Source: a virus (lineage: Duplodnaviria > Caudoviricetes). Taken from it: a stretch of DNA of 64,000 nt. The stretch is from IMG/VR virus record IMGVR_UViG_3300013121_000036, positions 32,001 to 96,000 of that record; one strand, 5' to 3'. The translations under genes were made by a program, and so were the position numbers. Under the pieces are notes generated by a model, which saw only the letters and a program-made list of their open reading frames with translations, did not search any database and was not told where the DNA came from. Below are positions 935 through 49,078 of the stretch, piece after piece; the stretch's first letter is position 1; the number at the start of each line of letters is the position of its first letter.

Positions 935-1852
935 ATGGCCGAAAACAGCAAGATTGCATGGACAACACACACGTGGAACCCGTGGATCGGCTGCACCAAG
1001 GTGTCAGCAGGGTGCAAGAACTGCTATGCGGAGGGCTTGCAGGGCAGGTTCGGAGGAGGTCTATGGGGGGCCGATGGCAGGCGCAGGATAGCTGCCCCCA
1101 GCTCGTGGAAAGAGCCCCTGTCATGGGACCGCAAGGCGAGAGATGCTGGCGAGAGGCATCGAGTCTTCTGCGCCTCTCTGGCAGATGTCTTCGAGGACAG
1201 GGCGGATCTTGCTGAGCCTAGGAAGCGCGTGTTTGGGGTCATCGAAGCGACCCCAAACCTGGACTGGCTACTGCTCACGAAGCGGCCTCAAGACATGGGA
1301 AGGCTAGCGAAGGACGCCGGATGGTCTGGGATGTGGCCCAGCAACGTGTGGGCGGGAACAACGGTAGAGGACCAGTCAGCGGCTGACTCGCGCATCCACT
1401 ATCTGCTTCGAGTGCCCGCACTCACACGCTTCCTTTCCTGCGAGCCCATGCTCAGCCCCATCCGGCTCACGTACAGGCTCGGATGCCACGCGGGCAAGGA
1501 CGGCGAATGCAACTGGCAGAACTGTCCGCAAATCCGCGACAATGAGCCCTATCGTAGTGGCAGGCACTGCCCGCTAGACTGGTCGTCGCAAGACGACTAC
1601 GAGAGCCCGCCGCGCATCGACTGGGTCATCGTGGGTGGCGAGAGCGGGCCAAATGCGCGACCGTTCGACTTGTTGCACGCAGGGTCGCTCATGCGTCAGT
1701 GCAAGCTGTCCGGCGTGCCAGTGTTCTTCAAGCAACTAGGTGCAAACCCGGTGTTTGGCGACAAGCCGTGGCCACTCGCACACGACAAGCGATCCGGCGC
1801 CGACAAGCGAGACTGGCCCGAGTGGTTGATGGTGCAGGAGTTCCCCACGTAG
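935..1852 (+). CDS. DUF5131 / phage Gp37Gp68 family protein
   Basis: SKIAWTTHTWNPWIGCTKVSAGCKNCYA, FCASLADVF, LLTKRP, FLSCEP, IDWVIVGGESG, FFKQLG motifs; GAGGAG RBS. Confidence 0.92.
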   Translation: MAENSKIAWTTHTWNPWIGCTKVSAGCKNCYAEGLQGRFGGGLWGADGRRRIAAPSSWKEPLSWDRKARDAGERHRVFCASLADVFEDRADLAEPRKRVFGVIEATPNLDWLLLTKRPQDMGRLAKDAGWSGMWPSNVWAGTTVEDQSAADSRIHYLLRVPALTRFLSCEPMLSPIRLTYRLGCHAGKDGECNWQNCPQIRDNEPYRSGRHCPLDWSSQDDYESPPRIDWVIVGGESGPNARPFDLLHAGSLMRQCKLSGVPVFFKQLGANPVFGDKPWPLAHDKRSGADKRDWPEWLMVQEFPT

Positions 1853-1929
1853 GGCACATGTGGGACAAGATGACACATGTTTTCTTCGCGGCGGTTGCAA
1901 CGGCTCCATGTCATGGTCATGCTTTGGAC

Positions 1930-2229
1930 ATGGCAAAGAAGTTGGACTACTCCTCCGCGAAGAAGGCTCAGAAGGTGTCCGAGGAAGCGTCCGCCCAGAG
2001 GGCCGCAAGGGGTGTCGTCAGGTCGTTCGACGACGAGCCCAAGAGGGTCGTTCGGGTGTCGACCAAGACCGTCAACATGAGGATGTTCAACCTCAAGAGG
2101 GTGAGGATGCTCTACGTCTTCGAGCTTGAGTGCGGGCACTCAGTGAATTTCGCGAGGATGCCTCACGAGAAACACGAGTACCTGCTCTGCTCAAGGTGCC
2201 ACTCAGACTCCTTGACACCTGGCATGTGA
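1930..2229 (+). CDS. hypothetical protein, C-terminal Zn ribbon
   Basis: LECGH...CSRC. Confidence 0.6.
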   Translation: MAKKLDYSSAKKAQKVSEEASAQRAARGVVRSFDDEPKRVVRVSTKTVNMRMFNLKRVRMLYVFELECGHSVNFARMPHEKHEYLLCSRCHSDSLTPGM

Positions 2230-2242
2230 GGTCGGATACTAT
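2212..2242 (+). promoter_or_regulatory. sigma70-type promoter
   Basis: TTGACA(2212)-17 nt-GATACT(2235); alternative -10 TACTAT at 2237. Confidence 0.65.
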
Positions 2243-2249
2243 GGCAGCC

Positions 2250-2333
2250 ATGCTCTAGCTGCCAAGAGGCCCGCCCTCCTCGAACAAAGCCAGTCCCGTG
2301 AACAGAAACGCTTGTCCGTGGAGGAAGATATGA
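2250..2333 (+). CDS. putative leader peptide M-L-(amber)-LPRGPP...
   Basis: ATG CTC TAG CTG CCA AGA GGC CCG CCC; read-through frame ends in a TGA overlapping the ATG at 2330. Confidence 0.5.
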
Positions 2334-2698
2334 ACAACCATGTTTTGTTTCGGAACATCTCGCAACTGAAGAAGCGCAGCAGGCTCCAGCACCTCATCTA
2401 CAACTGGATGATCCAGACGCCGCGAGAGAAGGTGGAGCGTAGGGTGAGCGAGCAGAGCCTTGCCTTCATCAAGGGCGAGGCACGTCGCATGAGGAACATC
2501 CTGAGCGTTGACACCGCGCCAGATGGAGCTGAGCCTGGCCACCGAACGCTGACGGCGATGGCGGTACACGAGGTCGTGGACTTCGTCGAGTGGCTCAAGC
2601 TCGACTCGTACGAGGTCAAGGTCTGTGCTCCTGGTTCGGTTGCCGAGAGGAAGCTTAGGGCTGCTGAGCGCAGGGCGGCCAAGAGCGCCGAAGCGTAG
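2330..2698 (+). CDS. hypothetical protein; N-terminal half of an amber read-through fusion with Pth2
   Basis: GGAGG RBS; ends in TAG in frame with the Pth2 domain. Confidence 0.75.
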   Translation: MNNHVLFRNISQLKKRSRLQHLIYNWMIQTPREKVERRVSEQSLAFIKGEARRMRNILSVDTAPDGAEPGHRTLTAMAVHEVVDFVEWLKLDSYEVKVCAPGSVAERKLRAAERRAAKSAEA

Positions 2699-3007
2699 GG
2701 CAAGCTCTACATCGTGGTGAGGGAAGACCTGCCGCAGGGCGCAAGGGTAGCCCAGTCGGTTCACGCCGCCGTCGAGATGGCAGTGGAGCATCCACGCGAA
2801 TTCAGGGCGTGGTGGAAAAGCTCCAACACCGTCGTGGTGTTGCTGACCAAAGACGAGGAGCGCCTCACGTCGATCTTCGACGATGCCATCGAGAAGAACA
2901 TGACGACTGTCCTCTTCAGTGAGCCAGACATGGGCAACCGGCCCACGGCGATGGCCGTCATCGACCAAGGCGCCAAGCGCTTGCTTCGCAAGCTGAAGCT
3001 GGCATAA
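2699..3007 (+). CDS. pth2: peptidyl-tRNA hydrolase 2 (Pth2)-like domain
   Basis: KLYIVVREDL...AQSVHAA...W...TVVVL...FSEPD...TAMA...LRKLKL; the first strand starts right after the TAG with no start codon of its own. Confidence 0.85.
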   Translation, partial: GKLYIVVREDLPQGARVAQSVHAAVEMAVEHPREFRAWWKSSNTVVVLLTKDEERLTSIFDDAIEKNMTTVLFSEPDMGNRPTAMAVIDQGAKRLLRKLKLA

Positions 3008-3045
3008 CATCGACACATGGCCAGGTCCACTTCGGGCCTGGCTTC

Positions 3046-3118
3046 GAGGCCATAGCTCAGCAGGTAGAGCGGCGGGTTCTAAACCTGCAAGTCGCCGGTT
3101 CGAGCCCGGCTGGTCTCA
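3046..3118 (+). tRNA. amber suppressor tRNA (anticodon CUA)
   Basis: acceptor GAGGCCA/TGGTCTC, D arm GCTC/GAGC, anticodon stem GCGGG/CCTGC with loop TT-CTA-AA, T arm GCCGG-TTCGAGC-CCGGC, A73; no encoded CCA. Confidence 0.92.
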
Positions 3119-3133
3119 CGAAGGAGAACGAAG

Positions 3134-3724
3134 ATGGCGAAGTTTGCTTGGTTCATTGAGAGCGACGGGTACCTGAAGAAGGAGTTTGACGACATCTGGG
3201 ATACCGTAGAGGATGCCGTGAAGTTCGGAGTGGAACAAGACATCCTCAAGAAGGTCGTCGTTGGATCGGTCGAGCCGATGATCCCGTGGGACGCGATCAC
3301 CGCTGTCGACGTTGCCATGCTGAGGGAAGACGAAGGACAACTGTCTCCGCAGTCGCTCCTGGGCATGGTCTACGGGATGTTGCCACCTCTCATCAACGAG
3401 ACTTTCGTGTTCCTGAAAGGCGGGGCAGAAGCTGCCTTTCAGGAAATCATGTCACGAGGTGGCAACGACGACGACTTCCTTGCTTGGTGCAAGCAGTACA
3501 TCGAGGCCGACCCAGAGACATGCGTCTTCGGTGTTCACCCACTACCGCTTGGCTTCAGAAACGGTCACTGGTGCATGGCATCGGATGAGGACGTCTGGGT
3601 TGACGTTCACATCGAGGACGACGGCTCGTTCGGAGGTTGGGACTGGTACGCAGGGGCCCCAGCATCGTGGGGCACATGCGACAGCCTACGAGAGGCGATG
3701 AGCCTTGCCAGCGGTCGTAAATGA
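3134..3724 (+). CDS. hypothetical protein
   Basis: AAGGAG RBS, 196 aa. Confidence 0.7.
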   Translation: MAKFAWFIESDGYLKKEFDDIWDTVEDAVKFGVEQDILKKVVVGSVEPMIPWDAITAVDVAMLREDEGQLSPQSLLGMVYGMLPPLINETFVFLKGGAEAAFQEIMSRGGNDDDFLAWCKQYIEADPETCVFGVHPLPLGFRNGHWCMASDEDVWVDVHIEDDGSFGGWDWYAGAPASWGTCDSLREAMSLASGRK

Positions 3725-4257
3725 CGTTCGCGGTGAGCAACGAGAAGGATGTTCTTATCAAGCTCAGGAACCAGCTTCTGGAGCTGGAGTCGAAGTACCG
3801 TGAGCTGGCCAAGAAGGCAGAGGATGCGGAAGACTGGATGACCAAGTACGAAAGGCTGGCATCTTTTCGAGCTTACGAAATCTCAGGCAAGCTGGTGGCC
3901 AGCGCGATTTTGGCCATCGAACAGGTAGGAGCCGAAGTGAAAGCCGAAGTGAACTTCAAGTGGGAATGCCCCACGTGCGGAGCGGTGGCCGGCAAACATG
4001 GGGCTGGCGGAAAATCGAAGTGCATCTCAACCACAGCAGGATGCGATGGGTTGATCTGCGAGTGCGACCCTCGTGATCTTGGAAACGACTACAGTGCGAA
4101 GGACCACGGCGTCTCTCACTCGAATCCATGCCAGAACGCAAGCTGTTACCACTGCGGCTGGGGAGGACGACTGCCTCCAGTGCCGAAGAAGATGCAGCCG
4201 TGGGAGAAGAAGGCTATCAGTGCCGGGTGGACTCCGCCGGCTGGGTGGGGGCAGTGA
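3721..4257 (+). CDS. hypothetical protein with Cys-rich C-terminus
   Basis: ATGA overlap; CPTC, CICEC-like, CYHC. Confidence 0.65.
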   Translation: MTFAVSNEKDVLIKLRNQLLELESKYRELAKKAEDAEDWMTKYERLASFRAYEISGKLVASAILAIEQVGAEVKAEVNFKWECPTCGAVAGKHGAGGKSKCISTTAGCDGLICECDPRDLGNDYSAKDHGVSHSNPCQNASCYHCGWGGRLPPVPKKMQPWEKKAISAGWTPPAGWGQ

Positions 4258-4258
4258 C

Positions 4259-7200
4259 ATGGCACTTGTAGCCGTTCTCGTTTCGATGGCTTTTTCGGTG
4301 ACATGGTCGTATTGCATGTCCGTGGCAAGCAACCTCATCCATCGAGCGGCGCTCTTGATCCTGCTGTTCACCATCATGGGCCTTGGTGTTGCCGGCATGG
4401 TGTGCAAGTGATCTGGGTCGTCGTAAGAGAAGAGGGGATCTACCTCTACTCGCTTGGCAGAGAGAGCGCGCTACACCCTTGGACCACGGTCTGGTCGGCA
4501 AGCGGATTCCACCTGATGTCCGAGGAGGAAGCGCGATCGTCAAGCAAGGTTATCTCGGACGGCGGCATCTCGTGCTCTGCTGTGGAGCTGAGAACGGCGC
4601 CAGACTGGAAGAAGAAAAGTGGTGACAAGCACATGCTTCTCCAGTACCTGGCCAGAAGCGAGGAGGCTGGATGATGGACATCTGGGGACCATGCATGACA
4701 GTCTCGACATGGTCTCTAACCGTTCCGAGGCCGGCTTTGACATCTGCCTCTACGGAAGGGGTCATAACGGTTACGCACGACCAGAGGTCTGTGTCGCACG
4801 CGATGACTGGTGTGCCATTCACTGCGACGAAGTCAGAGCCCAAGAAGCCGGCAAACAGGCACGAGAGGCGAGCTGCGGCGGCGATGGAGAGGAAAAGGAA
4901 GAAACGATGAACTGGACACCCGTGGAGCTGTTTGATCCGAGGGCTTACCCATACAGGGAAGAGCTTGGTTCTCTTGACGAAGAGACGCCAGGAACAGGTC
5001 AAACGCTCATGATAATGAGCGCGTGGGGCAGTGAGCTGTCAAAGGCTGCCGACGATGGCCTGAGGGCAATTCTTGTCTTTCAGGCGGCGCAAAAGTTCGT
5101 CAACGAGGTTGCGTCTCTTGGTGTCGACGTCATCAGCCTGATGAGGTGGATGGTCGATGACCAGCGAGAAGACATCATGTGGCAGGTTTACGGCGACGGA
5201 AAAGGCGTCGTCGCAACGGTCGGCCGATGAAACACATCCTCGTCAGATTCAAAGACGTTGGCAGAAAACGATTCGCCGTCGTACTGTGCGGCCCGGATGT
5301 GCCACTCGGCGAGACCGCGCACAGCTATGCTCGCGTCGACTGTCCAGAGTGTCGCAAGATCAAGCTCGAAGAGCTGCGCGGGAAGACCATGGGACTGGGG
5401 TGTGGCGACAGCGGTTGCGCGTGCAGGAGACCAGGAGGGCAGACCACCAACGGGGGATGTCGATGCGAGCGTTCCCAACTGCGCGAATCATCCGTTGTCT
5501 GGAGAAACTACGCCTTGTTGCTTGAGTCGGAGGTGAAGCGATGACGCTCAAGGAAGCAAAAGCGGCTCTCGCCGCCGCACAGGAAGCCTACAAGGCTGCT
5601 GACGAGGCATACAGTGCCGCCGGGGAGCGCGCTCGTGTCGCGAGGTCAGCGGTGTGGGAGGCAGAACGCTCCGTCGACCGTGCCAAACCGCTTGGCAAGC
5701 GGGCGAAGGACATGCTGACGAGGATGGCGAGCGCGCCTGTGTCGGTTGCCTACGACAGATACCGAACAAGCCAAGAAGAGCGCATCGCGCTGGCGCTTGT
5801 GGAACTGGGGTTTGCAACCAATAGGCGTCTTGGTGCGATGTTCGAGTTCACCATCACCGACGCCGGCCGCGCCAAGCTGGGGGGCAAGCCATGAGCGGCT
5901 GCGACTTTCCCGTGATGACACAGGCAGACGTGGCGGCGCTGGGCGATATCGAGAGGGCGACCGCTCGCGCGGCAAATGGCTGCGATGCGGCGCTGTTGCG
6001 TGCCTTCAGCTACCGATGCTGGCAGCGCTTGCCCGACGGGTCGGGCCGACCGCGATTGCTGACTGGGCACAGCGGCGTGTGCGTCCCTAACCGCGCGCGG
6101 CACATGCCGCGGAAGTTGCTCAATAACCTGAGCATGTTTGCTGACGACTACTGGCGAGAAACTCTTTCACAGGGCCAAACGCATCTGATGTTCGCGGCAC
6201 GCGAGCGTTCGTTTGGTGCCGATCGACGGATATCATCTAGCCTGCGGCCTCGGCGCGTCACGAGCAACGGGCTCGTCATCGTGAGGGGGCGGCGATGAGC
6301 GACGGGGCTCCTGTGCGGTGGAGGGTGACCATCGAGGGCTGCCAGCCAGACCTCTACACATCGCGCCGCGAGGCCGTCGCCGCAGTAAACCGAGCCAGGC
6401 TGCTGGGCGACTCTGCGACACTCACGAGGGTCGAGACGGTCTCGAGGCGCTGGCGAGTCAGGGGCGTGACCTGTCGCGTCTGGCGATGCGTGTGGACCAA
6501 ACGCTGGTTCTGGGCTGCTGGCGAGGTTGACAACGTTTTCGATGACTACGGATCGTCCTCCTACGCCGCGGCCGTCGAGGCCGCAGAGCGATGCGCAAGG
6601 GGGCAGCGATGAAGCGCCTCCCTCGACGTCAATCAGGGTCATCCCCGGCCCGGTACGACTGCCGGGAGCGGTCGGACGGCCTGTGGACGATCGTCGTTTT
6701 CAGGGCCCCTCTGGGCGGCGTGTCGTGGCTGGCTCGGGGCCCGAGGGTCGGCGGGCCGCTGTACGGGACTGAAGCGATGATGGGGCAGGCGATGCGGGAA
6801 GCTCGGGATGCGGTCAGGGGGCAGAAATGACAGACGACGATGCTGCGCGGGCAAGGGAGATGCGCAAGGAGGCTTTGCGAAGGATGCTGTCTAGCATGGA
6901 GGAGCTGCCGACTTCGTGCCTTGGAGTCCCGCGGCTCAGGTTCTTGGGACGAGGCCACAAGAAGCGACTTTATGGCATAGCCAGGATTTGGCAGATGTCG
7001 CAAGACATTGCCCACGAGCTTCGGCGACTGAGCGGTTGGTTTCACGATTGTCGCCTCGACAGGGCGAGGGCTCTACACTGGGCGTCTTACTGCCGAGCCA
7101 CATCCATGGCGAGACATCCTTACGCCATCTCCACGCGCCGATTCACCGCTGACGGCACTGTGGTGGCCCTGTCGAGGGCAGCGAGGGTACGATGAGCGCC

Positions 7201-9413: not shown

Positions 9414-9442
9414 TTGACCAGAACAACTACTCGGACTAGGTT
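9414..9442 (+). promoter_or_regulatory. sigma70-type promoter, leaderless start
   Basis: TTGACC-17-TAGGTT, ATG 6 nt downstream. Confidence 0.55.
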
Positions 9443-9448
9443 GCCCAC

Positions 9449-26432: not shown

Positions 26433-26585
26433 GTACTACTCGTGTACTTCTTTCTGAGGGGGGCCGCAAGAGAAATTTGTCACTTCGCCATGCCGGCGAG
26501 AACAATGAGTCCCTGAACGGCTTTGGCCCCGCGTGTCGAGCGTGGGAGGCGGTCTGAGCCCTCTTCTCTCAGGAGAGGTGTGTCT

Positions 26586-29036
26586 TTGGCTACCGCCCAC
26601 GTGACCGCTGTGACCATGAAGCAGGTCAAGAGCTACGACAAACCCAAGGGGTTGGCCGCGAACAAGTACGCGGCCAACGGCCTCGGCGTCGTCGCTCTGG
26701 CTGCCGTCAATGGTCGTGGCGCGGCAAAGGCTTGGCGGCCGAAGACGAAGGCCCAGCGCTCTTGGGTCAGCGACAAGATTTCGTACCTCATCAAGCACGA
26801 TGGGATGGGCCAGCGACAGGCCATCGCGGTTGCCCACTCGATGGGCAAGCGTGAGTTCTCCAAGTCGAAGCCCTCCAACAAGAGGAGCAGCCTCACAACC
26901 GGCATCAGCAAGGCGAGGCTGTCAAAGGGCAAGGTACTTGTCGGCGGAAAGAAAGTAGACGCCCACAAGTTCGACAAAGCCTACTCGGTACACGTCTCCC
27001 CAGACGGCAAGAAGACTTCGCTCTACTGGTCGGGCACCAAGGCTGGCGACGGCAAACTGGCTCGGCTGAAGGTCAAAGAGCTGGTTCGGGTGAAGTGGGG
27101 CAAGCCGGCGGAGCTTCGCTTTTGGGGCAAGGGCGGCAAGGACGTCAAGCTCAAGGCGAGCAGCGTTGACGTCAACCCCAAGAAAAAGACCATCAAGGTC
27201 GGCAAGAAGACGTTCAAGTTCAGCGACTTCCAAGGTGGAGCCGGCTTGGAATACTTCGCCGACGACTTCCTTTCTGACTACCACAGCGGGAAGAGAGAAA
27301 AGGGATTCAGCGGCTTCGTCGCCAACTCGAAAGACGCCACGCAGGGTGGCGCGAAGGGACCCATGACCATCTACGAAGCAAACGGTAGCCGCAAGAGCAA
27401 GAAGGGCGGCGGCAAGCTCTCGAAGGCAGAGCGTCGCAAGATCGCTCTGCGCAACCTGGCGAAGGCTCGCAGGGCCCTCGGCAAGAAGGGCGGCGGCAAG
27501 AAGGGCGGCGGCAAGCGCGGCAAGAAGAGCGGCAACAGCCAGTTCGTCACCAAGACGGTGAAGGTGCGCGAGCGCGTCGCGTATGGCCCGTACCGTCTCG
27601 CTCGCGACTCGAAGGGCCGCCCCATCCCGTTCGCCTACCGAGAAGGCAAGGGCAAAGGCAAGTCGCTGAAGCGAGTGCCTCAGTGGGCCCTCTTCGGATT
27701 CAAGTCCGAGGAAGCCTTCGAGAAGGCCAAGCAGGACGAGAAGCAGTCGGCTCGCATCTGGGAGCAAACGGCAAAGGCCGTCGAAGAGCGTGGCAAGGCC
27801 ATCGAGGCTCTTCAGCGCCGCGCCGCCAAGTCGATCGAAGCGGCGAAAGCCAAGGCCGACCGCGCCGCCAAGGCGTTCGAGGCCGAAGAAGAGCGTGTCA
27901 GGAAGGGAGAGTCTTTCTACGTCATGAACTCCAAGAAGAGCAGCAAACGAGGCAAGCGCGGCGGCAAGCTCTCGAAGGCAGAGCGTCGCAAGATCGCTCT
28001 GCGCAACCTGGCGAAGGCTCGCAGGGCCCTCGGCAAGAAGGGCGGCGGCAAGAAGAGCGCTGCCAAGCGTGGCAAGAAGGGCGCTGCCAAGCGCGGCAAG
28101 AAGAACTACGCGAAGTACGGTCCTCGTGACTCGAAGGGCCGTCTCCTGAAGAAGGGCGCTGCCAAGCGCAGCAGCAAGCGCAGCAGCAAGCGCAGCAGCA
28201 AGCGCAGCAGCAAGAGGATGCGCCGCAACGGCGAGGGCGCGGTCGTGCAGACGATGGCCGCGAACCGCCGCCATGGCCGCCGCCGCAAGATGCGCCGCAA
28301 CGACTTCATGGCGATGCTCCGCCCCGCGCTGACGACCGGCGCCTCCGTTCTCGGTGGCTTCCTGGTCCACCGTGCGGCCTCGAACGTGGTCTCCGAGAAG
28401 GTGCTGACCATGGTGGGGTACCTCGCGGACTCGCCCTTCCGCAGCTCGATCGCGGGCGTCCTCGTGGCCCTCGCGGGCGTTCCCCTCGCCCAGAAGTTCA
28501 TGCCCTCGAACGCTCTTGCGGTCGGCGCCGGCATGGTTACGTCTGCGCTGCACACCGCCGTCCTCGCGGTCCTCAAGGCCGCCGGTCAGGACGCCGCCGC
28601 CAACTACCTCGCTGGCGTCGGCGACATCCCCGCGGTCAACACGACCGGCTGGGCTGGCATCGGGGCCTACGAGCTGGCCGGCATGGGCGCTCCGTACGCT
28701 CAGGCCGCCGCTGGCATGGGTGCCTACCCTGTCCAGGCTGCCGCTGGCATGGGCGCCTACGAGCTGGCCGGCATGGGCGCTCCGTACGCTCAGGCCGCCG
28801 CTGGCATGGGTGCCTACCCTGTCCAGGCGGCCGCCGGGTACGGCGCCTACGAGCTGTCGGGCATGGGCGTCATCGCTGACGGGATCCGCCCCGACGGTGC
28901 CAGCATCGAGCAGGCCCTCAACGAGGCCGATCAGATGGCCGGCGGCGATGGCCCCATCCCCTCGCGCGACATCAACGTCCCGACCTACGCTGACCGCGAG
29001 ATGGCGCTCAGCGGCGGGATCTTCCGCGGCTACTGA
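26586..29036 (+). CDS. large Lys/Arg-rich putative core (DNA-condensing) polyprotein with membrane domain and AGMG repeats
   Basis: AGGAGAGG RBS (exact start uncertain); duplicated KLSKAERRKIALRNLAKARRALGKK, (KRSS)4, hydrophobic helices, tandem AGMG repeats. Confidence 0.7.
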   Translation: MATAHVTAVTMKQVKSYDKPKGLAANKYAANGLGVVALAAVNGRGAAKAWRPKTKAQRSWVSDKISYLIKHDGMGQRQAIAVAHSMGKREFSKSKPSNKRSSLTTGISKARLSKGKVLVGGKKVDAHKFDKAYSVHVSPDGKKTSLYWSGTKAGDGKLARLKVKELVRVKWGKPAELRFWGKGGKDVKLKASSVDVNPKKKTIKVGKKTFKFSDFQGGAGLEYFADDFLSDYHSGKREKGFSGFVANSKDATQGGAKGPMTIYEANGSRKSKKGGGKLSKAERRKIALRNLAKARRALGKKGGGKKGGGKRGKKSGNSQFVTKTVKVRERVAYGPYRLARDSKGRPIPFAYREGKGKGKSLKRVPQWALFGFKSEEAFEKAKQDEKQSARIWEQTAKAVEERGKAIEALQRRAAKSIEAAKAKADRAAKAFEAEEERVRKGESFYVMNSKKSSKRGKRGGKLSKAERRKIALRNLAKARRALGKKGGGKKSAAKRGKKGAAKRGKKNYAKYGPRDSKGRLLKKGAAKRSSKRSSKRSSKRSSKRMRRNGEGAVVQTMAANRRHGRRRKMRRNDFMAMLRPALTTGASVLGGFLVHRAASNVVSEKVLTMVGYLADSPFRSSIAGVLVALAGVPLAQKFMPSNALAVGAGMVTSALHTAVLAVLKAAGQDAAANYLAGVGDIPAVNTTGWAGIGAYELAGMGAPYAQAAAGMGAYPVQAAAGMGAYELAGMGAPYAQAAAGMGAYPVQAAAGYGAYELSGMGVIADGIRPDGASIEQALNEADQMAGGDGPIPSRDINVPTYADREMALSGGIFRGY

Positions 29037-30011: not shown

Positions 30012-31187
30012 ATGATGCAAGATCCGAACATCCAAGCCCTGATCAACAACGTCAACCGTCAGAACGCATTCCTGCGGCAGCTCAGCGACAAGACCGTGGC
30101 CAGCGAGGAGGCCGCGAAGCGAGCACTGAACCAGCTCGAAGGCATGAAGAGCGTCATGTCGCGACTGAGCATCGGTGGCGGCGGTGGCGTGAGCCGGTTC
30201 GGCTCGAACGCCCCCATGGGCAAGGGACCGAGCGGCAAGTGGGTGTCGCTCGACGAGATCCCCGGCCGCCGCATCCCCTACGACTTCCACGTCAGCATCC
30301 TCATCCGAAACGGTGAGGCGAGCGAGACGAGCGGAACGCTGTACGTCACCCCCGACGGCCCGTTCGTGGCGACGGCGCGGTACGCCATCTTCCAGTCGGC
30401 GCACCAGTTCCGCTACTCGTCGGAGAGCGGCGTGTCGACCTTCAGCGGTCGCTCGTATGGCCGTTTCCGCCCCATCCACTCTGCCAACGACATCATGGAC
30501 GCGCAGAGGGCCTTCGAGCAGCTCTCGATGTACCAGCCCTCGTACGTCGGAGCCACGCTCAATCCGGCCGGCAACGCAATCGTCCCCGTCCCCAACCCCG
30601 CTGCCGTTCATGTCGGCAACGGTGGCGGCGCCGGCACCGCGACGTCGGACCAGTCGAACCTGCTCCCCAACTTCCCCGGCAACGGCGCTCCGATCTACAC
30701 GTCGCCGCTGTCCATGGCAGCTTTCCGCACGATGCAGTTCGACGGCCGGTTCGTCGTCGCGGTGAAAGGGTCGCAGTTCCAACGTGCGGAGGACCCGAGC
30801 GGCGTCCCTTCGACGTTCTGGGCAACCAGGGGCAGCGATCCGTTCCCCCTGGCGTGCGAGGACATCTTCGACCCGGGCGAGACCATCGAGATCAAGGTTC
30901 GCCCGAACCATCCGAACAACCCCCAGTTCGGCAACATCTCTGGCCTGATGTATCAGGGCAACGACTTCACGTTCACTCCCGCCACGGCATCGTCTGCCAA
31001 CAACCCCGCCCCCGTCGGCCCGTTCCCCTTCCTGTCGGGCCAGTTTGACGGGCACGAGGGCATCAACGACCGATCTGTTCAGGGGGACTCGACCAGCACG
31101 ACGGATCGGGTGAGCCGCGCCGAAGACGGAATCCTGATCATCGGGTTCCTCGGCTACCGCATCCTGCCCCCGCCTGGCGTCTACTGA
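30012..31187 (+). CDS. putative second jelly-roll capsid protein with N-terminal coiled coil
   Basis: AGGAG RBS; DGPFVA...FDPGETIEIKV...IIGFLGYRI. Confidence 0.55.
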   Translation: MMQDPNIQALINNVNRQNAFLRQLSDKTVASEEAAKRALNQLEGMKSVMSRLSIGGGGGVSRFGSNAPMGKGPSGKWVSLDEIPGRRIPYDFHVSILIRNGEASETSGTLYVTPDGPFVATARYAIFQSAHQFRYSSESGVSTFSGRSYGRFRPIHSANDIMDAQRAFEQLSMYQPSYVGATLNPAGNAIVPVPNPAAVHVGNGGGAGTATSDQSNLLPNFPGNGAPIYTSPLSMAAFRTMQFDGRFVVAVKGSQFQRAEDPSGVPSTFWATRGSDPFPLACEDIFDPGETIEIKVRPNHPNNPQFGNISGLMYQGNDFTFTPATASSANNPAPVGPFPFLSGQFDGHEGINDRSVQGDSTSTTDRVSRAEDGILIIGFLGYRILPPPGVY

Positions 31188-36374: not shown

Positions 36375-37238
36375 ATGGCCAAGAAGCAGCCAACAAGGGC
36401 CAGGTCGATCACGTTCGATGACTGGCCGTATTCGAGGCACAAGCCGTACGCTGCCGTCGTCGAGTGGCCTTGCTTCAGCCGTGACCTGTGGCTTGGCAAG
36501 AGCATCGGCGACATTCCCAACGCCTTTCTCTTCGACTGCTTCAAGTTGGACGCTTCGGCGACGTCGGCCAGCGAACGCATGGCGCAAGAGCTTGGTGGAA
36601 AGTACAGCCCCGCCGCACTCGTCTTCGCCGGACTGTCACTGCCGATGCCAGATGGCGAATCCAAGAGTTCTCGCATGGTCGTCGGAGCCCCAAAGGGGCA
36701 CCTGATAGACGACTTTTTCATGAACGTGACCGATCTCGACGAGATCATGTTCACGGAGAAGGACAACCTGTTCATTTCCTTCTCGTACTACTCAAGGAAG
36801 CAGTCGTGGTACCACGAGAGGAACAGCTCCTCCAGGTGGTCGTACGAAGAAGGAAAGTTGCCAGACGCTCCAACTCCGGTGGTGGCATCCAGCGTTATAA
36901 ACCTCAGCTTCGCATCACTCTCTTCGCTCGCCGGGGACATCGGCGAGCGACCAGCTTTCTCTCACGCTGTTGCGAGCGGCATCTTCGACAGCAAGAGAGA
37001 AGCAGAGGCTTGGTCGAAGAGGGTGAGTGTGGCCTTCGCCAAGGAGGCCGAGGACGCCCCGAAAGGAGACGACCTTGACGCCTGGGATAACTTCTGCTCA
37101 GGCGTGATGCCGGACCATGAGAGGTACGTGCTGCACACCATGAAAGCGGACCTCCGTGGTTCGAGAAGGATTCACTTCGACAGAACCGTCAAGGTGGACC
37201 CCATGAAGCTGATGAGGCTGGTTGGAGATGTGATGTTA
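36375..37238 (+). CDS. hypothetical protein (paralogue B); ends at TTA
   Basis: aligns with paralogue A up to KVDP..LMR; TTA then ATG 2 nt later. Confidence 0.75.
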
Positions 37239-37240
37239 CC

Positions 37241-37964
37241 ATGGCCAAACTTCTTGCCATCGCTGGGTTCGGGGACGAAACGCTGCCGCCAGGGACCCCG
37301 TCTGGGGTGCGAGACCTCACTCTGGAGCAGAAGCGAGCCATTTTCGACGGCTGGGGGACTGTGCTTGTCCTGAGCCTTCTTGCGGGCGCCTCCCTGTACT
37401 GGTGGTATTCTGGCGAGAAAGAGGACAGGGGACGATGACCAGCTCGCACTGGGCCGACAGGTTCGAGGCTTCAGCTTCTGCCATGGACGAGGCACAAGTG
37501 GATCCGCGCGTGCACCCGCTCTTGAGGAAGGCTTGTATCGAGGCGATGCTCGCCGTCGCCAAAGAGCTGCGGGAAGAGGCGAGAGCGGAAGGAGACGATT
37601 CATGACACCCCAGCAAGCCCTTTCAACTGCGCTCCAGCTCCCCTACTTCGGCGTGCGGCAGCACCTGCGGTCACACGGCATCGGCGACATCGTCGATGAC
37701 CAGATCCAAGACCTCAGCGCCAGAGTGGTCGACAACGCCTGGCCCGTGGCGCGAGATCGCATCATCTCCGACATACCAGCCCTCGTTGAGACGGCGGCCT
37801 ACCACCTGAAGCCGAGGCTGAAAGAAGCGGCCGTGGAGGTTGCCCAAGACCTCTCCGTGCAGCAGGCAATTGGCGCCGCGAAGCAGCAGGCCCTGCTCGT
37901 CGCCGCCGGAGCTTGTCTGGGCACGGCCGTCCTGACGTGGGCCCTTGTCAAGTACGTCGGTTGA
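37241..37964 (+). CDS. three small genes (37241-37438, 37435-37605, 37602-37964), two with C-terminal TM
   Basis: ATGA overlaps; GFGD and GIGD motifs. Confidence 0.6.
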
Positions 37965-37997
37965 CACGCCCCTGTGTCGGCGGTAGCCTCGGCATCC

Positions 37998-38597
37998 ATG
38001 AGCGATGATGGATCCGGCAAGGTCAAGCCGTTCGAGCCTGGGGACAAGATCGTAGGATTCGTGGCTGGGGGAGGGGCGGCTCCATCGACGTCAGAGGAAC
38101 GCGAGATCGCCTTCTGGAAGGCGGACGCTGAGCGACGCCGAGCGGAACAAGACAGGGAGAGGGAGCTTGCTCAAAGGGGCGGAGCCAGGCGCCAGACCCT
38201 CGACCTCGGGTCGCCGACGATGCACCCAGTCGTTGTGATGAAGATCACGATCGCGGGTCACGATGAGTACGCCCAGTGCGACGTGGTCAACATGTCCACG
38301 GACGGCAAGATGGACCTCGCTCTCGTCGTGCCGTGCCCCGGATGCCTCCGACGAGGGTACTCGACCGATCAGGCGCAGATCCACATCAAGCAGAGCCACC
38401 GCAAGTGGAGTCTCGACCGACGACACGAAGGCAAGCTGTGGGTGGACCCGGAGACGGGGCAGGCGTACCGACTGGCCGGCAAGCCTGTGGGCGAAGAAAC
38501 ATACATTTGCTCGCGGTGCAGGTTCGCCTTCGTCATCGACGACCGAGCGGACACGGGCCACGAGGGTGTCTCTTGGATGCGTCCGGTGAGGGCATTA
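37998..38597 (+). CDS. Zn-ribbon hypothetical protein (ends at TTA)
   Basis: promoter TTGACA-17-TAGCCT at 37961; CPGC...CSRC; TTA-C-ATG junction. Confidence 0.65.
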
Positions 38598-48104: not shown

Positions 48105-48658
48105 CGTTTTCTCCTGTGTATCGTTGTCTCGTCGTACAGAGCGCCCCACGTCGGGTTCATGAGCCGCTCGACCTCATCGAAGGCCGACGCCAAAAGCTGG
48201 TGGAACTGGTCGTCAGCGGTGCAGCCGCCGGCTCCCTCTCCACAGTAAGCAACGTACTCTCCGCCAAGCGAAAGGTGCTTGACGGTAGCGTTGTAAGCCA
48301 TGGGGCTTTCATATGGTGGCCATACGAGCAGCAGTGTCCTTGCTGGCGGCATGTCGTTCAGGTCGTCCGTCACCCCGATGGGGTAGTACCTTGTTCTCCA
48401 CTTTTCGGCGTCGAAGGCCGATATCTTGCCGCCGGCCTCAGCTATCATGGAGGCCCAGTATCCGCTGCCAGCTCCCCACTCAACGATGGGCGAATACTTC
48501 GCTATGGCCCTGATGGTCTTCTCGTCTGGGATACCCCACGAGTATTTCCTCACCAGTTCCCATCGCTCTTTCGGCATGATGCGAGGGAGCCTGCCTTCGT
48601 CCCCCATGAACGGCTCAAGCTCTTCGAGGTACGGGTTGGCGATGGTCTTGTTCTTCAT
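48101..48658 (-). CDS. SAM-dependent methyltransferase-like protein
   Basis: IVEWGAGSGYWA, LLLVWPPY, YCGE..GGCTA. Confidence 0.75.
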   Translation of the reverse strand: MKNKTIANPYLEELEPFMGDEGRLPRIMPKERWELVRKYSWGIPDEKTIRAIAKYSPIVEWGAGSGYWASMIAEAGGKISAFDAEKWRTRYYPIGVTDDLNDMPPARTLLLVWPPYESPMAYNATVKHLSLGGEYVAYCGEGAGGCTADDQFHQLLASAFDEVERLMNPTWGALYDETTIHRRKR

Positions 48659-48691
48659 GTTGCCATTATACCTCGAAGAGCTTGGCAAGGT

Positions 48692-49078
48692 CTACTTGAA
48701 CCTACGCCTCGGGTAACACTTGAAGAACAGGTTGGACAGCTCCAGCCTCGTCTTCATGGTCGCCTTTCGCAGCTTCTTTGCAACTTCGCTGTCGCCACAC
48801 TCTTTGGCGGCCTCCAGGCAGGCATCCTTCAGCTCCTCGTCTGTCAAGGCAGCCATGATTCTGTTCTTCAGGCTGATGTACCTGGACCTGCGCATGGTCT
48901 CCAGCATGAAGTAGTTCACGTACGAGAGAACGTAGTCCGGCGACACGAAGCCGATGTCCTCCAGGCTGCAAGCCGCCGCCATCACCTGGACTGAAGCGAT
49001 GCGATGACCGAACAGCAAGAGCGCGTCGGAAGCGCCCTGCTCTGCCGCTATCTTCATGATTTCCATGGCGCGCCTCAT
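48692..49078 (-). CDS. hypothetical protein
   Basis: ends in TAG, in frame with next gene. Confidence 0.55.
   Translation of the reverse strand: MRRAMEIMKIAAEQGASDALLLFGHRIASVQVMAAACSLEDIGFVSPDYVLSYVNYFMLETMRRSRYISLKNRIMAALTDEELKDACLEAAKECGDSEVAKKLRKATMKTRLELSNLFFKCYPRRRFK

What the first reader, a model, noticed from the sequence alone, without database searches (positions are those of the whole stretch)
2212..2333. Amber-interrupted leader peptide with an RGPP arrest-like motif ahead of the Pth2 operon
Seen: a promoter is followed by a near-leaderless ATG-CTC-TAG-CTG-CCA-AGA-GGC-CCG-CCC (M-L-*-L-P-R-G-P-P). Only if the TAG is read through does the ribosome reach RGPP and a TGA overlapping the next ATG (2330). 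The ATG-CTC-TA lies in the loop of a GGCAGC/GCTGCC hairpin (2243-2263). Established: RAPP/RGPP motifs stall bacterial ribosomes (ApdA/ApdP class), and minigenes cause peptidyl-tRNA drop-off. Inference: a sensor of amber suppression, RF1 activity or peptidyl-tRNA load that gates downstream translation.
Basis: partly seen in the sequence, partly recalled or inferred. Interest (0 to 1): 0.8.

Follow-up and report, generated by a model that had tools for sequence, protein, structure and literature searches.

The report
Stop-codon-gated ribosome-stalling leader in phage
A 110-kb virus starts a small operon with a tiny leader whose ribosome-stalling Arg-Gly-Pro-Pro motif is reached only if the virus's own UAG-reading tRNA overrides a stop codon; about twenty unrelated phage loci keep this design, so it looks like a natural, apparently undescribed switch that reports whether stop-codon read-through is working.

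Summary
The leader ATG(2250)-CTC-TAG-CTG-CCA-AGA-GGC-CCG-CCC follows a TTGACA/GATACT promoter. Its ATG has the same spacing from the -10 box as three likely leaderless genes of this genome.

The close relatives were nearly identical and told me nothing. I therefore fetched 80 phage loci through the neighbouring Pth2-like gene. A leader of the form Met, 1-5 codons, stop, 1-11 codons, Arg-(Gly/Ala)-Pro-(Pro/stop) occurs 22 times on the gene strand and never on the other strand. GC content ranges from 27 to 60%, and the codons vary synonymously.

The gate stop always matches the locus's suppressor tRNA: 16 TAG with CUA, 2 TAA with UUA, no mismatch. The leader always precedes one helical protein family of unknown function (ORF X, the window's 122-aa ORF). 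The bases a stalled ribosome would cover are complementary to that gene's ribosome-binding site (combined p about 2e-22).

In the window the read-through frame ends in an ATGA overlap with ORF X. ORF X ends in a second TAG, in frame with the Pth2 domain, and tRNA(CUA) follows.

I found no paper describing this. This scan has already noted the same switch in at least 46 other genomes. The stalling itself, and what ORF X and Pth2 do, are untested.

The parts
2212..2242 (+). Sigma-70-type promoter. TTGACA 2212-2217, then GATACT 2235-2240 (17-nt spacer) or TACTAT 2237-2242 (19-nt spacer). The -35 lies inside the end of the upstream gene, whose TGA is at 2227-2229.
   Evidence: L061 has the same hexamers: TTGACA-17-GATACT, then 7 nt, then ATG. 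The transcription start is inferred, not measured.
2243..2263 (.). Inverted repeat GGCAGC / GCTGCC with a 9-nt loop that holds ATG-CTC-TA. Its role is unresolved. It could be a DNA operator over the transcription start, or an RNA hairpin present only in transcripts that read through from upstream.
   Evidence: It is not shared with the related leaders. The 5' arm lies upstream of the predicted transcription start.
2250..2333 (+). Leader ORF. Met-Leu, the UAG gate, then L-P-R-G-P-P-S-S-N-K-A-S-P-V-N-R-N-A-C-P-W-R-K-I, then UGA. ATG 2241 is an alternative in-frame start with a possible GAGG Shine-Dalgarno at 2229-2232.
   Evidence: The pattern is unique in the 110-kb genome. The ATG lies 8 nt after TACTAT, the same spacing as three likely leaderless genes of this genome.
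2256..2258 (+). Gate 1: in-frame TAG at codon 3 of the leader.
   Evidence: The gate stop matches the local suppressor anticodon in 18 of 18 loci.
2265..2276 (+). Arrest core Arg-Gly-Pro-Pro (AGA GGC CCG CCC). The expected stall has CCG 2271-2273 in the P site and CCC 2274-2276 in the A site.
   Evidence: Searches show the conserved peptide with varying codons. PMC12992588 and PMC10951233 give the stalling mechanism.
2275..2282 (+). Anti-Shine-Dalgarno stretch CCUCCUCG, directly after and overlapping the second Pro codon. It is predicted to pair with GGAGG 2320-2324 and lies inside the footprint of a ribosome stalled at RGPP.
   Evidence: The duplex is -15.5 kcal/mol, at the 8th percentile of control windows in this locus. 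The same relation is much stronger in most related loci.
2320..2333 (+). Shine-Dalgarno GGAGGAAG (2320-2327) and start ATG 2330 of ORF X. The leader's stop TGA 2331-2333 overlaps the start as ATGA.
   Evidence: ATGA overlaps are also found in L031, L052 and L088. L061 has TGATG, L029 and L068 have 2-3-nt gaps, and L021, L033, L054 and L062 are in-frame fusions.
2330..2698 (+). ORF X, 122 aa, all-helical, function unknown. It carries the family motif region (LQHLIYNWMIQTPREKVERR) and ends in TAG.
   Evidence: hhalign E 3e-4 over the motif; pLDDT 76. There is no Pfam, PHROG, PDB or fold match.
2696..2698 (+). Gate 2: TAG that ends ORF X, one codon before the first strand of the Pth2 domain and in the same frame.
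   Evidence: TAG is the first in-frame stop upstream of Pth2 in 57 of 67 distinct loci.
2699..3007 (+). Pth2-like domain (PF01981), G-KLYIVVREDL... to TAA 3005-3007. The only internal start candidate, GTG 2714, would cut the first strand. The domain is probably made as a 225-aa read-through fusion with ORF X.
   Evidence: One search gives 32 bits from GTG 2714. One search gives 38.7 bits, with the profile matched from position 2, when read through. It is 46% identical to the cluster C mycobacteriophage PTH from the first residue after the TAG.
3020..3042 (+). Hairpin GCCAGG / CCTGGC with an 11-nt loop, between Pth2 and the tRNA.
   Evidence: Read. No T-run follows, so it is not an obvious terminator.
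3046..3119 (+). Amber suppressor tRNA with anticodon CUA, a regular cloverleaf and A73. The amino acid it inserts is unknown.
   Evidence: ARAGORN and Rfam tRNA at 64.2 bits, E 5.7e-13.

Best explanation
The stretch 2212-2333 is the control region of a small operon: leader, ORF X, Pth2-like domain, tRNA(CUA). I read it as a translational switch that reports whether the virus's suppressor tRNA is working.

Transcription from the TTGACA/GATACT promoter probably gives an mRNA that begins at or next to AUG 2250.

- Without suppression, ribosomes make Met-Leu, meet UAG 2256 and are released. The ribosome-binding site of ORF X stays paired with the CCUCC stretch at 2275-2279.
- With charged tRNA(CUA), ribosomes read through UAG and reach Arg-Gly-Pro-Pro. 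[quoted passage not shown]
- The stalled ribosome covers about 2259-2287, including the anti-Shine-Dalgarno stretch. That frees GGAGG 2320-2324 for new initiation at AUG 2330.
- Ribosomes that escape the stall run on to UGA 2331-2333, which overlaps AUG 2330 as AUGA, and can restart there.
- ORF X then ends at a second UAG (2696). Reading through it adds the Pth2-like domain.

Shown here: the sequence anatomy; conservation of the gated R(G/A)PP leader at peptide level; the match between gate stop and tRNA anticodon; complementarity between the stall footprint and the ribosome-binding site; recurrent coupling of the leader's end to the ORF X start; and the family-wide amber codon ahead of Pth2.

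Inferred: the transcription start, the stall on such a short peptide, the direction of the effect (activation), and the purpose of ORF X and Pth2.
For: 1. Anatomy.
2. Leaderless spacing: three other TTGAC(A/C)-N16-19-TANNNT sites in this genome are followed 7-9 nt later by the ATG of a long ORF. Two are at window 9449 and 37998, the third is outside the window at genome position 26481. ATG 2250 lies 8 nt after TACTAT.
3. Conservation: in 80 Pth2 loci from IMG/VR, the strict pattern Met, 0-5 codons, stop, 0-11 codons, R[GA]P[P/stop] occurs 22 times on the gene strand and 0 times on the reverse strand. The looser pattern gives 28 hits against a shuffle mean of 0.64. Examples: L068 MMF-TAA-LPRGPP; L057 MRPFW-TAG-LGCRGPP-TGA; L061 MYH-TAG-LHLGRGPP. 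Arg is AGA, CGT, CGC or CGA; Gly is GGC, GGT, GGA or GGG; Pro is CCN.
4. L057 (60% GC) repeats the whole architecture: leader, a 164-aa ORF X ending in TAG in frame with Pth2, then tRNA(CUA).
5. Covariation: 16 TAG gates go with CUA tRNAs and 2 TAA gates with UUA tRNAs, with no mismatch. The chance that both TAA gates fall on the two UUA loci is 1 in 153.
6. Footprint and ribosome-binding site: duplex energy is in the top 5% of control windows in 15 of 22 loci, with a median percentile of 0.2% and Fisher p of 2e-22. The window itself is at 8%. Constrained folds raise the accessibility of the ribosome-binding site when a ribosome sits at the arrest site, but not when it sits at the gate stop. 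In the window the Shine-Dalgarno rises from 0.03-0.19 to 0.25-0.30.
7. The leader frame ends at or within 3 nt of the ORF X start, or is fused in frame to it, in 11 of 15 leaders that continue past the Pro-Pro.
8. Published work: RAPP and RGPP are the strongest arrest cores, are not relieved by EF-P, tolerate varied N-terminal contexts, and RGPP is the tetrapeptide most excluded from bacterial proteomes (PMC12992588). The structural mechanism is in PMC10951233.
9. There is no genome-wide TAG recoding: coding density is 87% under the standard code, only 10 of 151 crude gene calls end in TAG, and only one TAG has a coding signal on both sides.
Against: - No experiment and no transcript data support the model. 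The transcription start is only predicted.
- For this lineage the comparison is weak. Four Logan contigs are about 99% identical in the leader, with a single non-synonymous change at 2294. The one 87% relative has the same gene spacing but no DNA could be fetched.
- In the window the evidence for unmasking the ribosome-binding site is modest. The duplex is only at the 8th percentile. The AUG stays in a local hairpin in the constrained folds. The overall fold z-score is -1.4.
- The nascent chain at the stall would be only 8 residues. Published work says the RAPP core needs an adjacent N-terminal region (PMC12992588), and 6-9 ordered residues were seen in the structures. Stalling of so short a peptide is therefore untested.
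- The base after the gate is C (TAG-C). Most low-GC family members have a purine there.
- The window's ORF X matches the family only weakly (hhalign probability 39%).
Confidence: 0.75

Rival explanations
1. The same conserved gated leader acts negatively or as a homeostat. The read-through-dependent stall would block or reduce ORF X expression, or trigger mRNA cleavage or ribosome rescue. Alternatively it deliberately produces short peptidyl-tRNA that drops off, so the element measures peptidyl-tRNA hydrolase or rescue capacity rather than switching ORF X on.
For: - Pth2-like genes are the constant neighbours of the leader.
- In the window the AUG of ORF X stays paired even with a ribosome at the stall site.
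- Low-GC family members stall at a stop codon (R-G/A/S-P-stop), which could invite rescue factors.
Against: - The stall footprint is complementary to the ribosome-binding site of the next gene in most loci. That is the classic layout of activating arrest leaders.
- The leader frames end in ATGA-type overlaps with ORF X or are fused in frame to it, which argues for delivering ribosomes to ORF X.
Confidence: 0.12
2. In this window the M-L-TAG...RGPP reading is a chance product of GC-rich intergenic DNA. The functional elements are only the promoter, the Shine-Dalgarno sequence, and perhaps the GGCAGC/GCTGCC palindrome acting as an operator or 5' stem.
For: - RGPP occurs 11 times in the six-frame translation of this genome, about the expected number.
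- The DNA pattern stop-CTG-CCN-(A/C)GN-GGC-CCN-CC occurs in at least 119 metagenome stretches, and none of the 80 fetched has the cassette.
- RNA fold z-scores are unremarkable.
- The close relatives are too similar to show selection.
Against: - The full pattern occurs once in 110 kb, exactly where about 20 other phages have it: directly upstream of ORF X, beside an amber-gated Pth2 and a matching suppressor tRNA.
- L068 has the same LPRGPP after its gate, encoded by different codons.
- The ATG lies at the leaderless distance from the -10 box.
Confidence: 0.05
3. The R(G/A)PP part is translated without any read-through. Translation would restart after termination at the gate, or begin at the near-cognate codon just after it (CTG, ATT, GTT and so on). 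The short Met-x-stop would then be only an upstream mini-ORF, and the suppressor tRNA would be irrelevant to the leader.
For: The codon after the gate is often CTG, ATT, ATC, ATA or GTT, which can act as weak starts.
Against: - In several loci the codon after the gate is AAC, ACG, GCA or CTC, which are not start codons.
- This reading does not explain why the gate is TAG with CUA tRNAs and TAA with UUA tRNAs.
- It does not explain why the gate is never TGA among the strict hits.
Confidence: 0.05

Closest known systems
RAPP/RGPP-type regulatory arrest peptides: ApdA, ApdP, ApcA, SecM with RAG-P, and the seven Streptomyces lividans RAPP/RGPP leaders (PMC7897499, PMC10951233, PMC12992588)
   Same: - The same C-terminal core, R-(A/G)-P-P, encoded just upstream of the regulated gene.
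[quoted passage not shown]
- The stalled ribosome is placed so that it opens an mRNA pairing that hides the downstream ribosome-binding site.
   Different: - Known members are 50-150-residue secreted or membrane proteins, or small proteins, whose stall is released by pulling force or other inputs.
- Here the peptide is 8-16 residues at the stall, is encoded by a phage, and is often on a leaderless mRNA.
- The input is upstream of the stall: an in-frame UAG or UAA that must be decoded by the phage's own suppressor tRNA.
- Some relatives end R-(G/A/S)-P-stop, so they would stall at termination.
PepNL of E. coli (PMC11890864)
   Same: A very short leader peptide (14 aa) whose arrest is tied to decoding of a stop codon and which regulates a downstream gene.
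   Different: - PepNL stalls at its own UGA by blocking RF2, and read-through by Trp-tRNA cancels the arrest.
- Here the logic is the reverse: read-through is needed to reach the arrest motif.
- The reading tRNA is a dedicated suppressor encoded in the same cassette.
AMD1 stop-codon read-through followed by a stalling C-terminal tail, in mammals (PMC13025110)
   Same: Ribosomes that read through a stop codon meet a conserved arrest sequence downstream, so read-through is converted into a stall.
   Different: It is eukaryotic and lies at the 3' end of a long coding sequence. It depends on near-cognate decoding, and the stall limits expression of its own mRNA rather than opening a downstream gene.
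Stop-codon recoding in phages with suppressor tRNAs (bioRxiv 10.1101/2021.08.26.457843; PMC10879173)
   Same: A phage-encoded tRNA(CUA) changes the meaning of UAG during infection. In-frame UAGs make the expression of some genes depend on it.
   Different: - Those phages carry in-frame TAGs across many late genes.
- This virus reads well under the standard code (87% coding; 10 of 151 crude genes end in TAG). It has only two candidate client TAGs, both in the tRNA's own operon.
- I found no report of an arrest leader in that literature.
Phage Pth2-like hydrolases beside tRNA genes: cluster C mycobacteriophages Bxz1 gp154 and Cane17 gp148, and jumbo phages (PMC7824862)
   Same: - The window's Pth2 domain is 46% identical to the cluster C protein.
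- In Cane17, Bxz1, Catera and Myrna the gene is also followed by a tRNA(CUA).
   Different: - Cluster C phages show no RGPP leader within 1.5 kb.
- Instead they have a promoter-like site followed by (A/G)TG-TAG-GTG directly ahead of the annotated start.
- I found no published mention of the amber codon.

Membership tests
RAPP/RGPP-type arrest peptides | C-terminal core Arg-(Ala/Gly)-Pro-Pro, or a close variant, in the translated frame | tested here: met
   AGA GGC CCG CCC at 2265-2276, in the frame of ATG 2250 once the TAG is read through. The same core is present in about 20 related leaders, encoded by different codons.
RAPP/RGPP-type arrest peptides | [quoted passage not shown] | not testable with these tools
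   This needs toeprinting, peptidyl-tRNA detection or cryo-EM. It is inferred from PMC10951233 and PMC12992588.
RAPP/RGPP-type arrest peptides | An adjacent N-terminal region that supports the arrest; the core alone is reported to be insufficient | tested here: inconclusive
   Only 5 residues precede the Arg in the window (M-L-X-L-P), and 4-12 in relatives. No sequence is shared apart from frequent Leu, Ile or Val after the gate. Published structures order 6-9 residues. Whether 8 residues are enough is unknown.
RAPP/RGPP-type arrest peptides | Encoded directly upstream of the regulated gene, with the stall site able to open a structure that hides the gene's ribosome-binding site | tested here: met
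   ORF X starts 53 nt after the Pro-Pro codons. CCUCC 2275-2279 pairs with GGAGG 2320-2324 in the predicted folds. Across the family, complementarity between the footprint and the ribosome-binding site gives p of 2e-22; the window itself is at the 8th percentile.
Stop-gated R(G/A)PP leader cassette of phages (the group defined here and in earlier notes of this scan) | Met, 0-5 codons, an in-frame stop, 0-11 codons, then R-(G/A)-P-(P/stop) | tested here: met
   M-L-TAG-L-P-R-G-P-P. This is the only hit in the 110-kb genome.
Stop-gated R(G/A)PP leader cassette of phages (the group defined here and in earlier notes of this scan) | The gate stop matches the anticodon of a suppressor tRNA in the same locus | tested here: met
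   TAG at 2256 and tRNA(CUA) at 3046-3119. Across the family there are 16 TAG/CUA and 2 TAA/UUA pairs and no mismatch.
Stop-gated R(G/A)PP leader cassette of phages (the group defined here and in earlier notes of this scan) | The leader is followed by an ORF X family member (motif R..LLAYA(F/Y).RG.PY...E and a later W-L) | tested here: met
   hhalign of the 122-aa ORF against 19 family members gives E 3e-4 over the motif, probability 39%. The nearly invariant Arg and Glu, and the EWL, align. The sequence signal is weak and is supported by the shared gene order.
Stop-gated R(G/A)PP leader cassette of phages (the group defined here and in earlier notes of this scan) | A neighbouring Pth2-like gene with an in-frame TAG a few codons before its first strand | tested here: met
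   TAG 2696 lies one codon before KLYIVVRED. In 57 of 67 distinct loci TAG is the first upstream in-frame stop, against a background of 22% (p 2e-28).
Genome-wide TAG recoding (code 15-like phages) | Many genes, typically late ones, interrupted by in-frame TAG; poor coding density under the standard code | tested here: not met
   Coding density is 87% under the standard code, with 151 crude genes. Only TAG 2696 has a coding signal on both sides. The other candidate, at 48694, is a gene boundary.

The most novel reading that the evidence does not exclude
The leader is the read-out of a self-contained 'genetic-code state' checkpoint carried by many unrelated phages. The phage's suppressor tRNA would be sensed directly on the ribosome by a stop-gated R(G/A)PP arrest peptide. 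Only when read-through works would the phage make ORF X, a new translation factor or regulator, and a Pth2-like enzyme. This would give 'orphan' phage suppressor tRNAs in standard-code phages, including cluster C mycobacteriophages, a dedicated natural target. It would also define a new input class for arrest peptides.
Probability: 0.55. Interest if true: 0.9.

Novelty: new variant of a known kind. Interest (0 to 1): 0.85.

Why it matters
- **A new input for arrest peptides.** Known arrest peptides sense secretion, membrane insertion, small molecules or antibiotics. A natural one whose input is the decoding of a stop codon by a specific tRNA would be new.
- **A role for orphan suppressor tRNAs.** Many phages that otherwise use the standard code carry one suppressor tRNA beside a Pth2-like gene. 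This switch would explain what that tRNA is for.
- **Testable hypotheses.** It gives concrete tests for ORF X, a widespread unknown protein family, and for phage Pth2.
- **A possible tool.** It offers a compact, portable read-out of amber suppression, of about 80 nt, that could be useful in genetic-code-expansion work.
- **Annotation.** Pth2 genes in dozens of phages, including well-studied cluster C mycobacteriophages, may start upstream of an in-frame TAG rather than at the annotated codon.

Tried and rejected
1. Nucleotide search of the region against GenBank phages found nothing.
2. Searches with the 122-aa ORF:
   - The IMG/VR search found nothing.
   - The JGI metagenome search found nothing.
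   - The scan of 1.8 billion representative proteins found only its own cluster plus two spurious hits.
   - The 5.8-billion-protein set gave only relatives of 87-98% identity.
3. The read-through fusion used as a query found no uninterrupted fused form.
4. The Logan contigs L004-L007 are about 99% identical in the leader, so they are uninformative. The 87% relative has no DNA available.
5. The nearest virus by the DUF5131 gene (L002, 79% identity) lacks the cassette in the part that is held.
6. An exact tRNA pattern found nothing in IMG/VR.
7. A degenerate DNA pattern for stop-L-P-R/S-G-P-P in metagenomes returned only chance hits without ORF X, Pth2 or a suppressor tRNA.
8. A second 'in-frame TAG' candidate at 48694 on the minus strand turned out to be a gene boundary.
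9. ORF X function could not be assigned. Pfam, PHROGs, the PDB sequence profile, AlphaFold plus Foldseek, and the ESM Atlas gave nothing usable.
10. Rfam found only the tRNA in 1500-4500.
11. A sigma-54 reading of TGGCAGC was considered by eye and rejected, because the GG-to-GC spacing is wrong.
12. The GGCAGC/GCTGCC hairpin as a shared RNA element was rejected, because it is not present in the related leaders.
Full report
**Setting.** The window is bases 32001-96000 of a 110,758-bp IMG/VR virus record with direct terminal repeats and 61.5% GC. Few of its genes have recognisable relatives. A crude gene call under the standard code gives 151 genes and 87% coding density. Stops are TGA 132, TAG 10 and TAA 9. 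Only one TAG in the genome has a coding signal on both sides. The virus therefore does not recode TAG genome-wide.

**The observation.**
- The upstream gene is a 99-aa Cys/His protein, ATG 1930 to TGA 2229, and it ends inside a promoter-like site.
- That site is TTGACA 2212-2217, 17 nt, GATACT 2235-2240. TACTAT 2237-2242 is an alternative -10. It is the best such site in the first 8 kb.
- Then come ATG 2250, CTC and TAG 2256-2258, followed in frame by CTG CCA AGA GGC CCG CCC (L-P-R-G-P-P) and 18 more codons.
- The frame ends at TGA 2331-2333, which overlaps ATG 2330 as ATGA. GGAGGAAG lies at 2320-2327.
- The inverted repeat GGCAGC/GCTGCC (2243-2263) is real.

Taken alone this is not beyond chance. 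RGPP occurs 11 times in the six-frame translation, against 15.8 expected. The RNA fold is unremarkable, with z of -1.4 to -1.8.

**The neighbourhood.**
- ATG 2330 opens a 122-aa ORF that ends in TAG 2696-2698.
- The same frame continues as G-KLYIVVREDL..., a Pth2-like domain (PF01981), to TAA 3007.
- Read through, the Pfam match starts at profile position 2 and scores 38.7 bits. From the only internal start, GTG 2714, it scores 32 bits and loses part of the first strand.
- A regular tRNA with anticodon CUA lies at 3046-3119 (ARAGORN; Rfam 64 bits).

**Leaderless spacing.** Scanning the genome for TTGAC(N)-N16-19-TANNNT gave seven sites. Three of them are followed 7-9 nt after the -10 by the ATG of a long ORF: one outside the window at genome position 26481, and two at window 9449 and 37998. 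ATG 2250 lies 8 nt after TACTAT. The leader's ATG is therefore placed like the start codons of likely leaderless genes of this virus. This is inference from spacing, not a mapped 5' end. It also means the 5' arm of the hairpin would not be in that transcript. A transcript reading through from upstream could instead use ATG 2241, with GAGG at 2229-2232, in the same frame.

**Relatives of this lineage.**
- The 122-aa protein is nearly an orphan.
- Four Logan contigs carry the cassette at about 99% identity, with one substitution in the leader region (T2294G, non-synonymous in the leader frame). They are uninformative.
- A relative at 87% identity keeps the same layout: a 100-nt gap, a 122-aa gene, a 15-nt in-frame gap, a Pth2 gene, and a 126-nt gap. 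Its DNA could not be fetched.
- The nearest virus by the DUF5131 gene (79% identity) lacks the cassette in the part that is held.

**Reaching further through Pth2.**
- The Pth2 domain is 46% identical to the peptidyl-tRNA hydrolase of cluster C mycobacteriophages, from the first residue after the TAG.
- In Cane17, Bxz1, Catera and Myrna that gene is also followed by a tRNA(CUA).
- It is preceded by TTGACA-18-TAC(C/T/A)GT, 6-7 nt, then (A/G)TG-TAG-GTG. The TAG is in frame with the annotated GTG start.
- A profile of these proteins then retrieved 80 loci from IMG/VR with GC from 23 to 67%.
- In 57 of 67 distinct loci the first in-frame stop upstream of the conserved first strand is TAG, against a background TAG share of 22% (p 2e-28). 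In 56 it lies within 13 codons, and in 52 a start codon lies at most 7 codons before it.
- Most loci have a tRNA(CUA) within 1.5 kb.
- An amber codon just inside the 5' end of phage Pth2 genes is therefore a family trait. The window's TAG 2696 is that codon, here preceded by a whole ORF, as also in L057, L061 and L085.

**The leader is conserved.**
- L057 (60% GC) has, after a Shine-Dalgarno sequence, ATG CGT CCA TTC TGG TAG CTC GGT TGC CGC GGT CCT CCG TGA, which reads M-R-P-F-W-stop-L-G-C-R-G-P-P-stop.
- It is followed by a 164-aa ORF ending in TAG in frame with Pth2, and then tRNA(CUA). That is the window's architecture with different codons.
- Across all loci, the strict pattern Met, 0-5 codons, stop, 0-11 codons, R[GA]P[P/stop] gave 22 hits on the gene strand and none on the reverse strand.
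- A looser pattern that also allows Ser gave 28 forward and 4 reverse hits, against a mean of 0.64 in shuffles.
- The leaders are encoded with AGA, CGT, CGC or CGA for Arg; GGN or GCN for Gly/Ala; and CCN for Pro, in genomes of 27-60% GC. Selection is therefore on the peptide.
- L068 reads M-M-F-stop-L-P-R-G-P-P, the same six residues after the gate as in the window.
- A low-GC subgroup places the leader after Pth2 and ends it R-(G/A/S)-P-stop.

**Gate and tRNA covary.** Among loci holding both a leader and a suppressor tRNA, 16 have a TAG gate with a CUA anticodon. The two with a TAA gate (L068, L085) have a UUA anticodon. There is no mismatch. In L068 the stop ahead of Pth2 is also TAA. This is the strongest argument that the gate is read by the cassette's own tRNA.

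**What the leader controls.**
- In 19 loci the next ORF, 0-120 nt downstream, belongs to one family of 105-190 aa. It has the motif R..LLAYA(F/Y).RG.PY...E and a later W-L.
- The window's 122-aa ORF aligns over this motif (LQHLIYNWMIQTPREKVERR; hhalign E 3e-4, probability 39%) and shares the Ala/Arg-rich tail of the higher-GC subgroup. I call it ORF X.
- It has no Pfam, PHROG or PDB relative. Its AlphaFold model is helical (pLDDT 76) and has no fold match.
- Two loci (L058, L066) have a different ORF after the leader. One (L062) fuses the leader to a Cys/His-rich ORF.

**Mechanistic evidence.**
- The Pro-Pro codons are very often CCU CC(N). With the following bases they are complementary to the Shine-Dalgarno or start region of ORF X.
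- I took the 21 nt that would lie in the P/A sites and downstream channel of a ribosome stalled at the first Pro. Their duplex energy with the ribosome-binding site is within the best 5% of all windows of the same locus in 15 of 22 loci. The median percentile is 0.2% and Fisher p is 2e-22.
- Folding with that stretch held single-stranded raises the accessibility of the ribosome-binding site in most loci. Holding a ribosome at the gate stop does not.
- In the window the pairing is CCUCC 2275-2279 with GGAGG 2320-2324. The duplex is -15.5 kcal/mol, at the 8th percentile. Shine-Dalgarno accessibility rises from 0.03-0.19 to 0.25-0.30, but the AUG stays in a local hairpin. For the window the support is therefore modest.
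- Here the second route may matter more. The leader frame ends in an ATGA overlap with ORF X. L031, L052 and L088 also have ATGA, L061 has TGATG, L029 and L068 have 2-3-nt gaps, and L021, L033, L054 and L062 are in-frame fusions. That is the layout of translational coupling.

**Published background.**
- RAPP and RGPP are the arrest cores that work in the widest range of contexts. EF-P does not relieve them, and RGPP is the tetrapeptide most excluded from bacterial proteomes. The core alone is reported to be insufficient without an adjacent N-terminal region (PMC12992588).
- PepNL couples arrest to stop-codon read-through in the opposite sense (PMC11890864). AMD1 is a eukaryotic case of read-through followed by a stall (PMC13025110).
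- Pth2 in jumbo phages is known (PMC7824862).
- Six full-text searches found no description of a stop-gated arrest leader, of the amber codon in phage Pth2, or of ORF X. The library covers open-access papers and bioRxiv only.

**Earlier notes of this scan.** After I had reached these results, I looked up the scan's notebook. It shows that the same switch has been noted in at least 46 other genomes. Follow-up reports there reached the same reading: gate matched to tRNA, RGPP codons masking the next start, and no paper found. Notes on this genome describe the ORF-amber-Pth2-tRNA cassette. These are unchecked AI notes. The scores here rest.

1. The gene directly gated is ORF X, and Pth2 has its own amber gate.
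2. The hairpin is not part of the conserved design.
3. What is sensed is most simply suppressor-tRNA decoding of UAG.

This window is a high-GC member with a single gate, a probably leaderless start, an ATGA-coupled leader, and ORF X fused to Pth2 through the second amber codon. Stalling, the direction of control, and the function of ORF X and Pth2 remain to be shown.

Noticed in passing
L008 1438-1482 (Cane17); L011 and L012 (Bxz1, Catera) about 1435-1482; L009 about 1435-1479 (Myrna): In cluster C mycobacteriophages the annotated GTG start of the peptidyl-tRNA hydrolase is directly preceded by (A/G)TG-TAG in frame. This lies 6-7 nt after a TTGACA-18-TAC(N)GT promoter-like site, and a tRNA(CUA) follows the gene. 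The gene may really start at a leaderless, amber-gated codon. No RGPP leader lies within 1.5 kb.
   Followed up: partly
window 2330-2698 and L021-L088 (coordinates): ORF X is a widespread phage protein family of 105-190 aa. It is helical, carries the motif R..LLAYA(F/Y).RG.PY...E, and always lies downstream of the gated leader. It matches nothing in Pfam, PHROGs, PDB or fold libraries.
   Followed up: partly
window 9414-9451 and 37961-38000; one further site upstream of the window at genome position 26447-26483: Three TTGAC(A/C)-N16-17-TANNNT sites are each followed 7-9 nt later by the ATG of a long ORF with no Shine-Dalgarno sequence. The virus appears to use leaderless mRNAs for several genes.
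   Followed up: partly
window 48654-48704, minus strand: TATAAT followed 6 nt later by ATG 48654 looks like another leaderless start. The nearby TAG at 48694-48692 is not an in-frame read-through site.
   Followed up: partly
L058 1845-2384 and L066 2184-2741: In two low-GC loci the gated leader (MKNT-TAG-VYTRGP-stop; MK-TAG-IIRAPP-stop) precedes a different, mutually similar ORF (motif Y(V/L)NKTS(K/E)H(L/V)F) instead of ORF X.
   Followed up: no
L062 684-1043: In an actinophage-like contig rich in tRNAs, the leader M-A-Y-TAG-TPTRE-RGPP runs straight, in frame, into a 106-aa Cys/His-rich ORF rather than ORF X.
   Followed up: no
L045, L066, L081, L083 between the leader and the next ORF: The low-GC leaders are followed by a recurring hairpin of the type (T/A)(T/A)GGACA-N3-TGTCC(A/T)(A/T). 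Its role is unknown.
   Followed up: no
L029 1825-1898: ARAGORN reports a tRNA-like gene with an irregular anticodon loop (two-base 'ct') where other loci have tRNA(CUA). It may be an unusual suppressor.
   Followed up: no
L002 (IMGVR_UViG_3300033073_001493): The closest virus found (DUF5131 protein 79% identical) shows no ORF X, no Pth2 and no homologue of the upstream Zn-finger gene in its 68.9-kb record. The cassette therefore looks like an accessory module.
   Followed up: partly
window 26523-29036, 30012-31187, 16421-18847, 36375-37373: Large ORFs of the presumed structural region have no PHROG or Pfam match. No terminase, portal or tail protein turned up among the ORFs I scanned.
   Followed up: no
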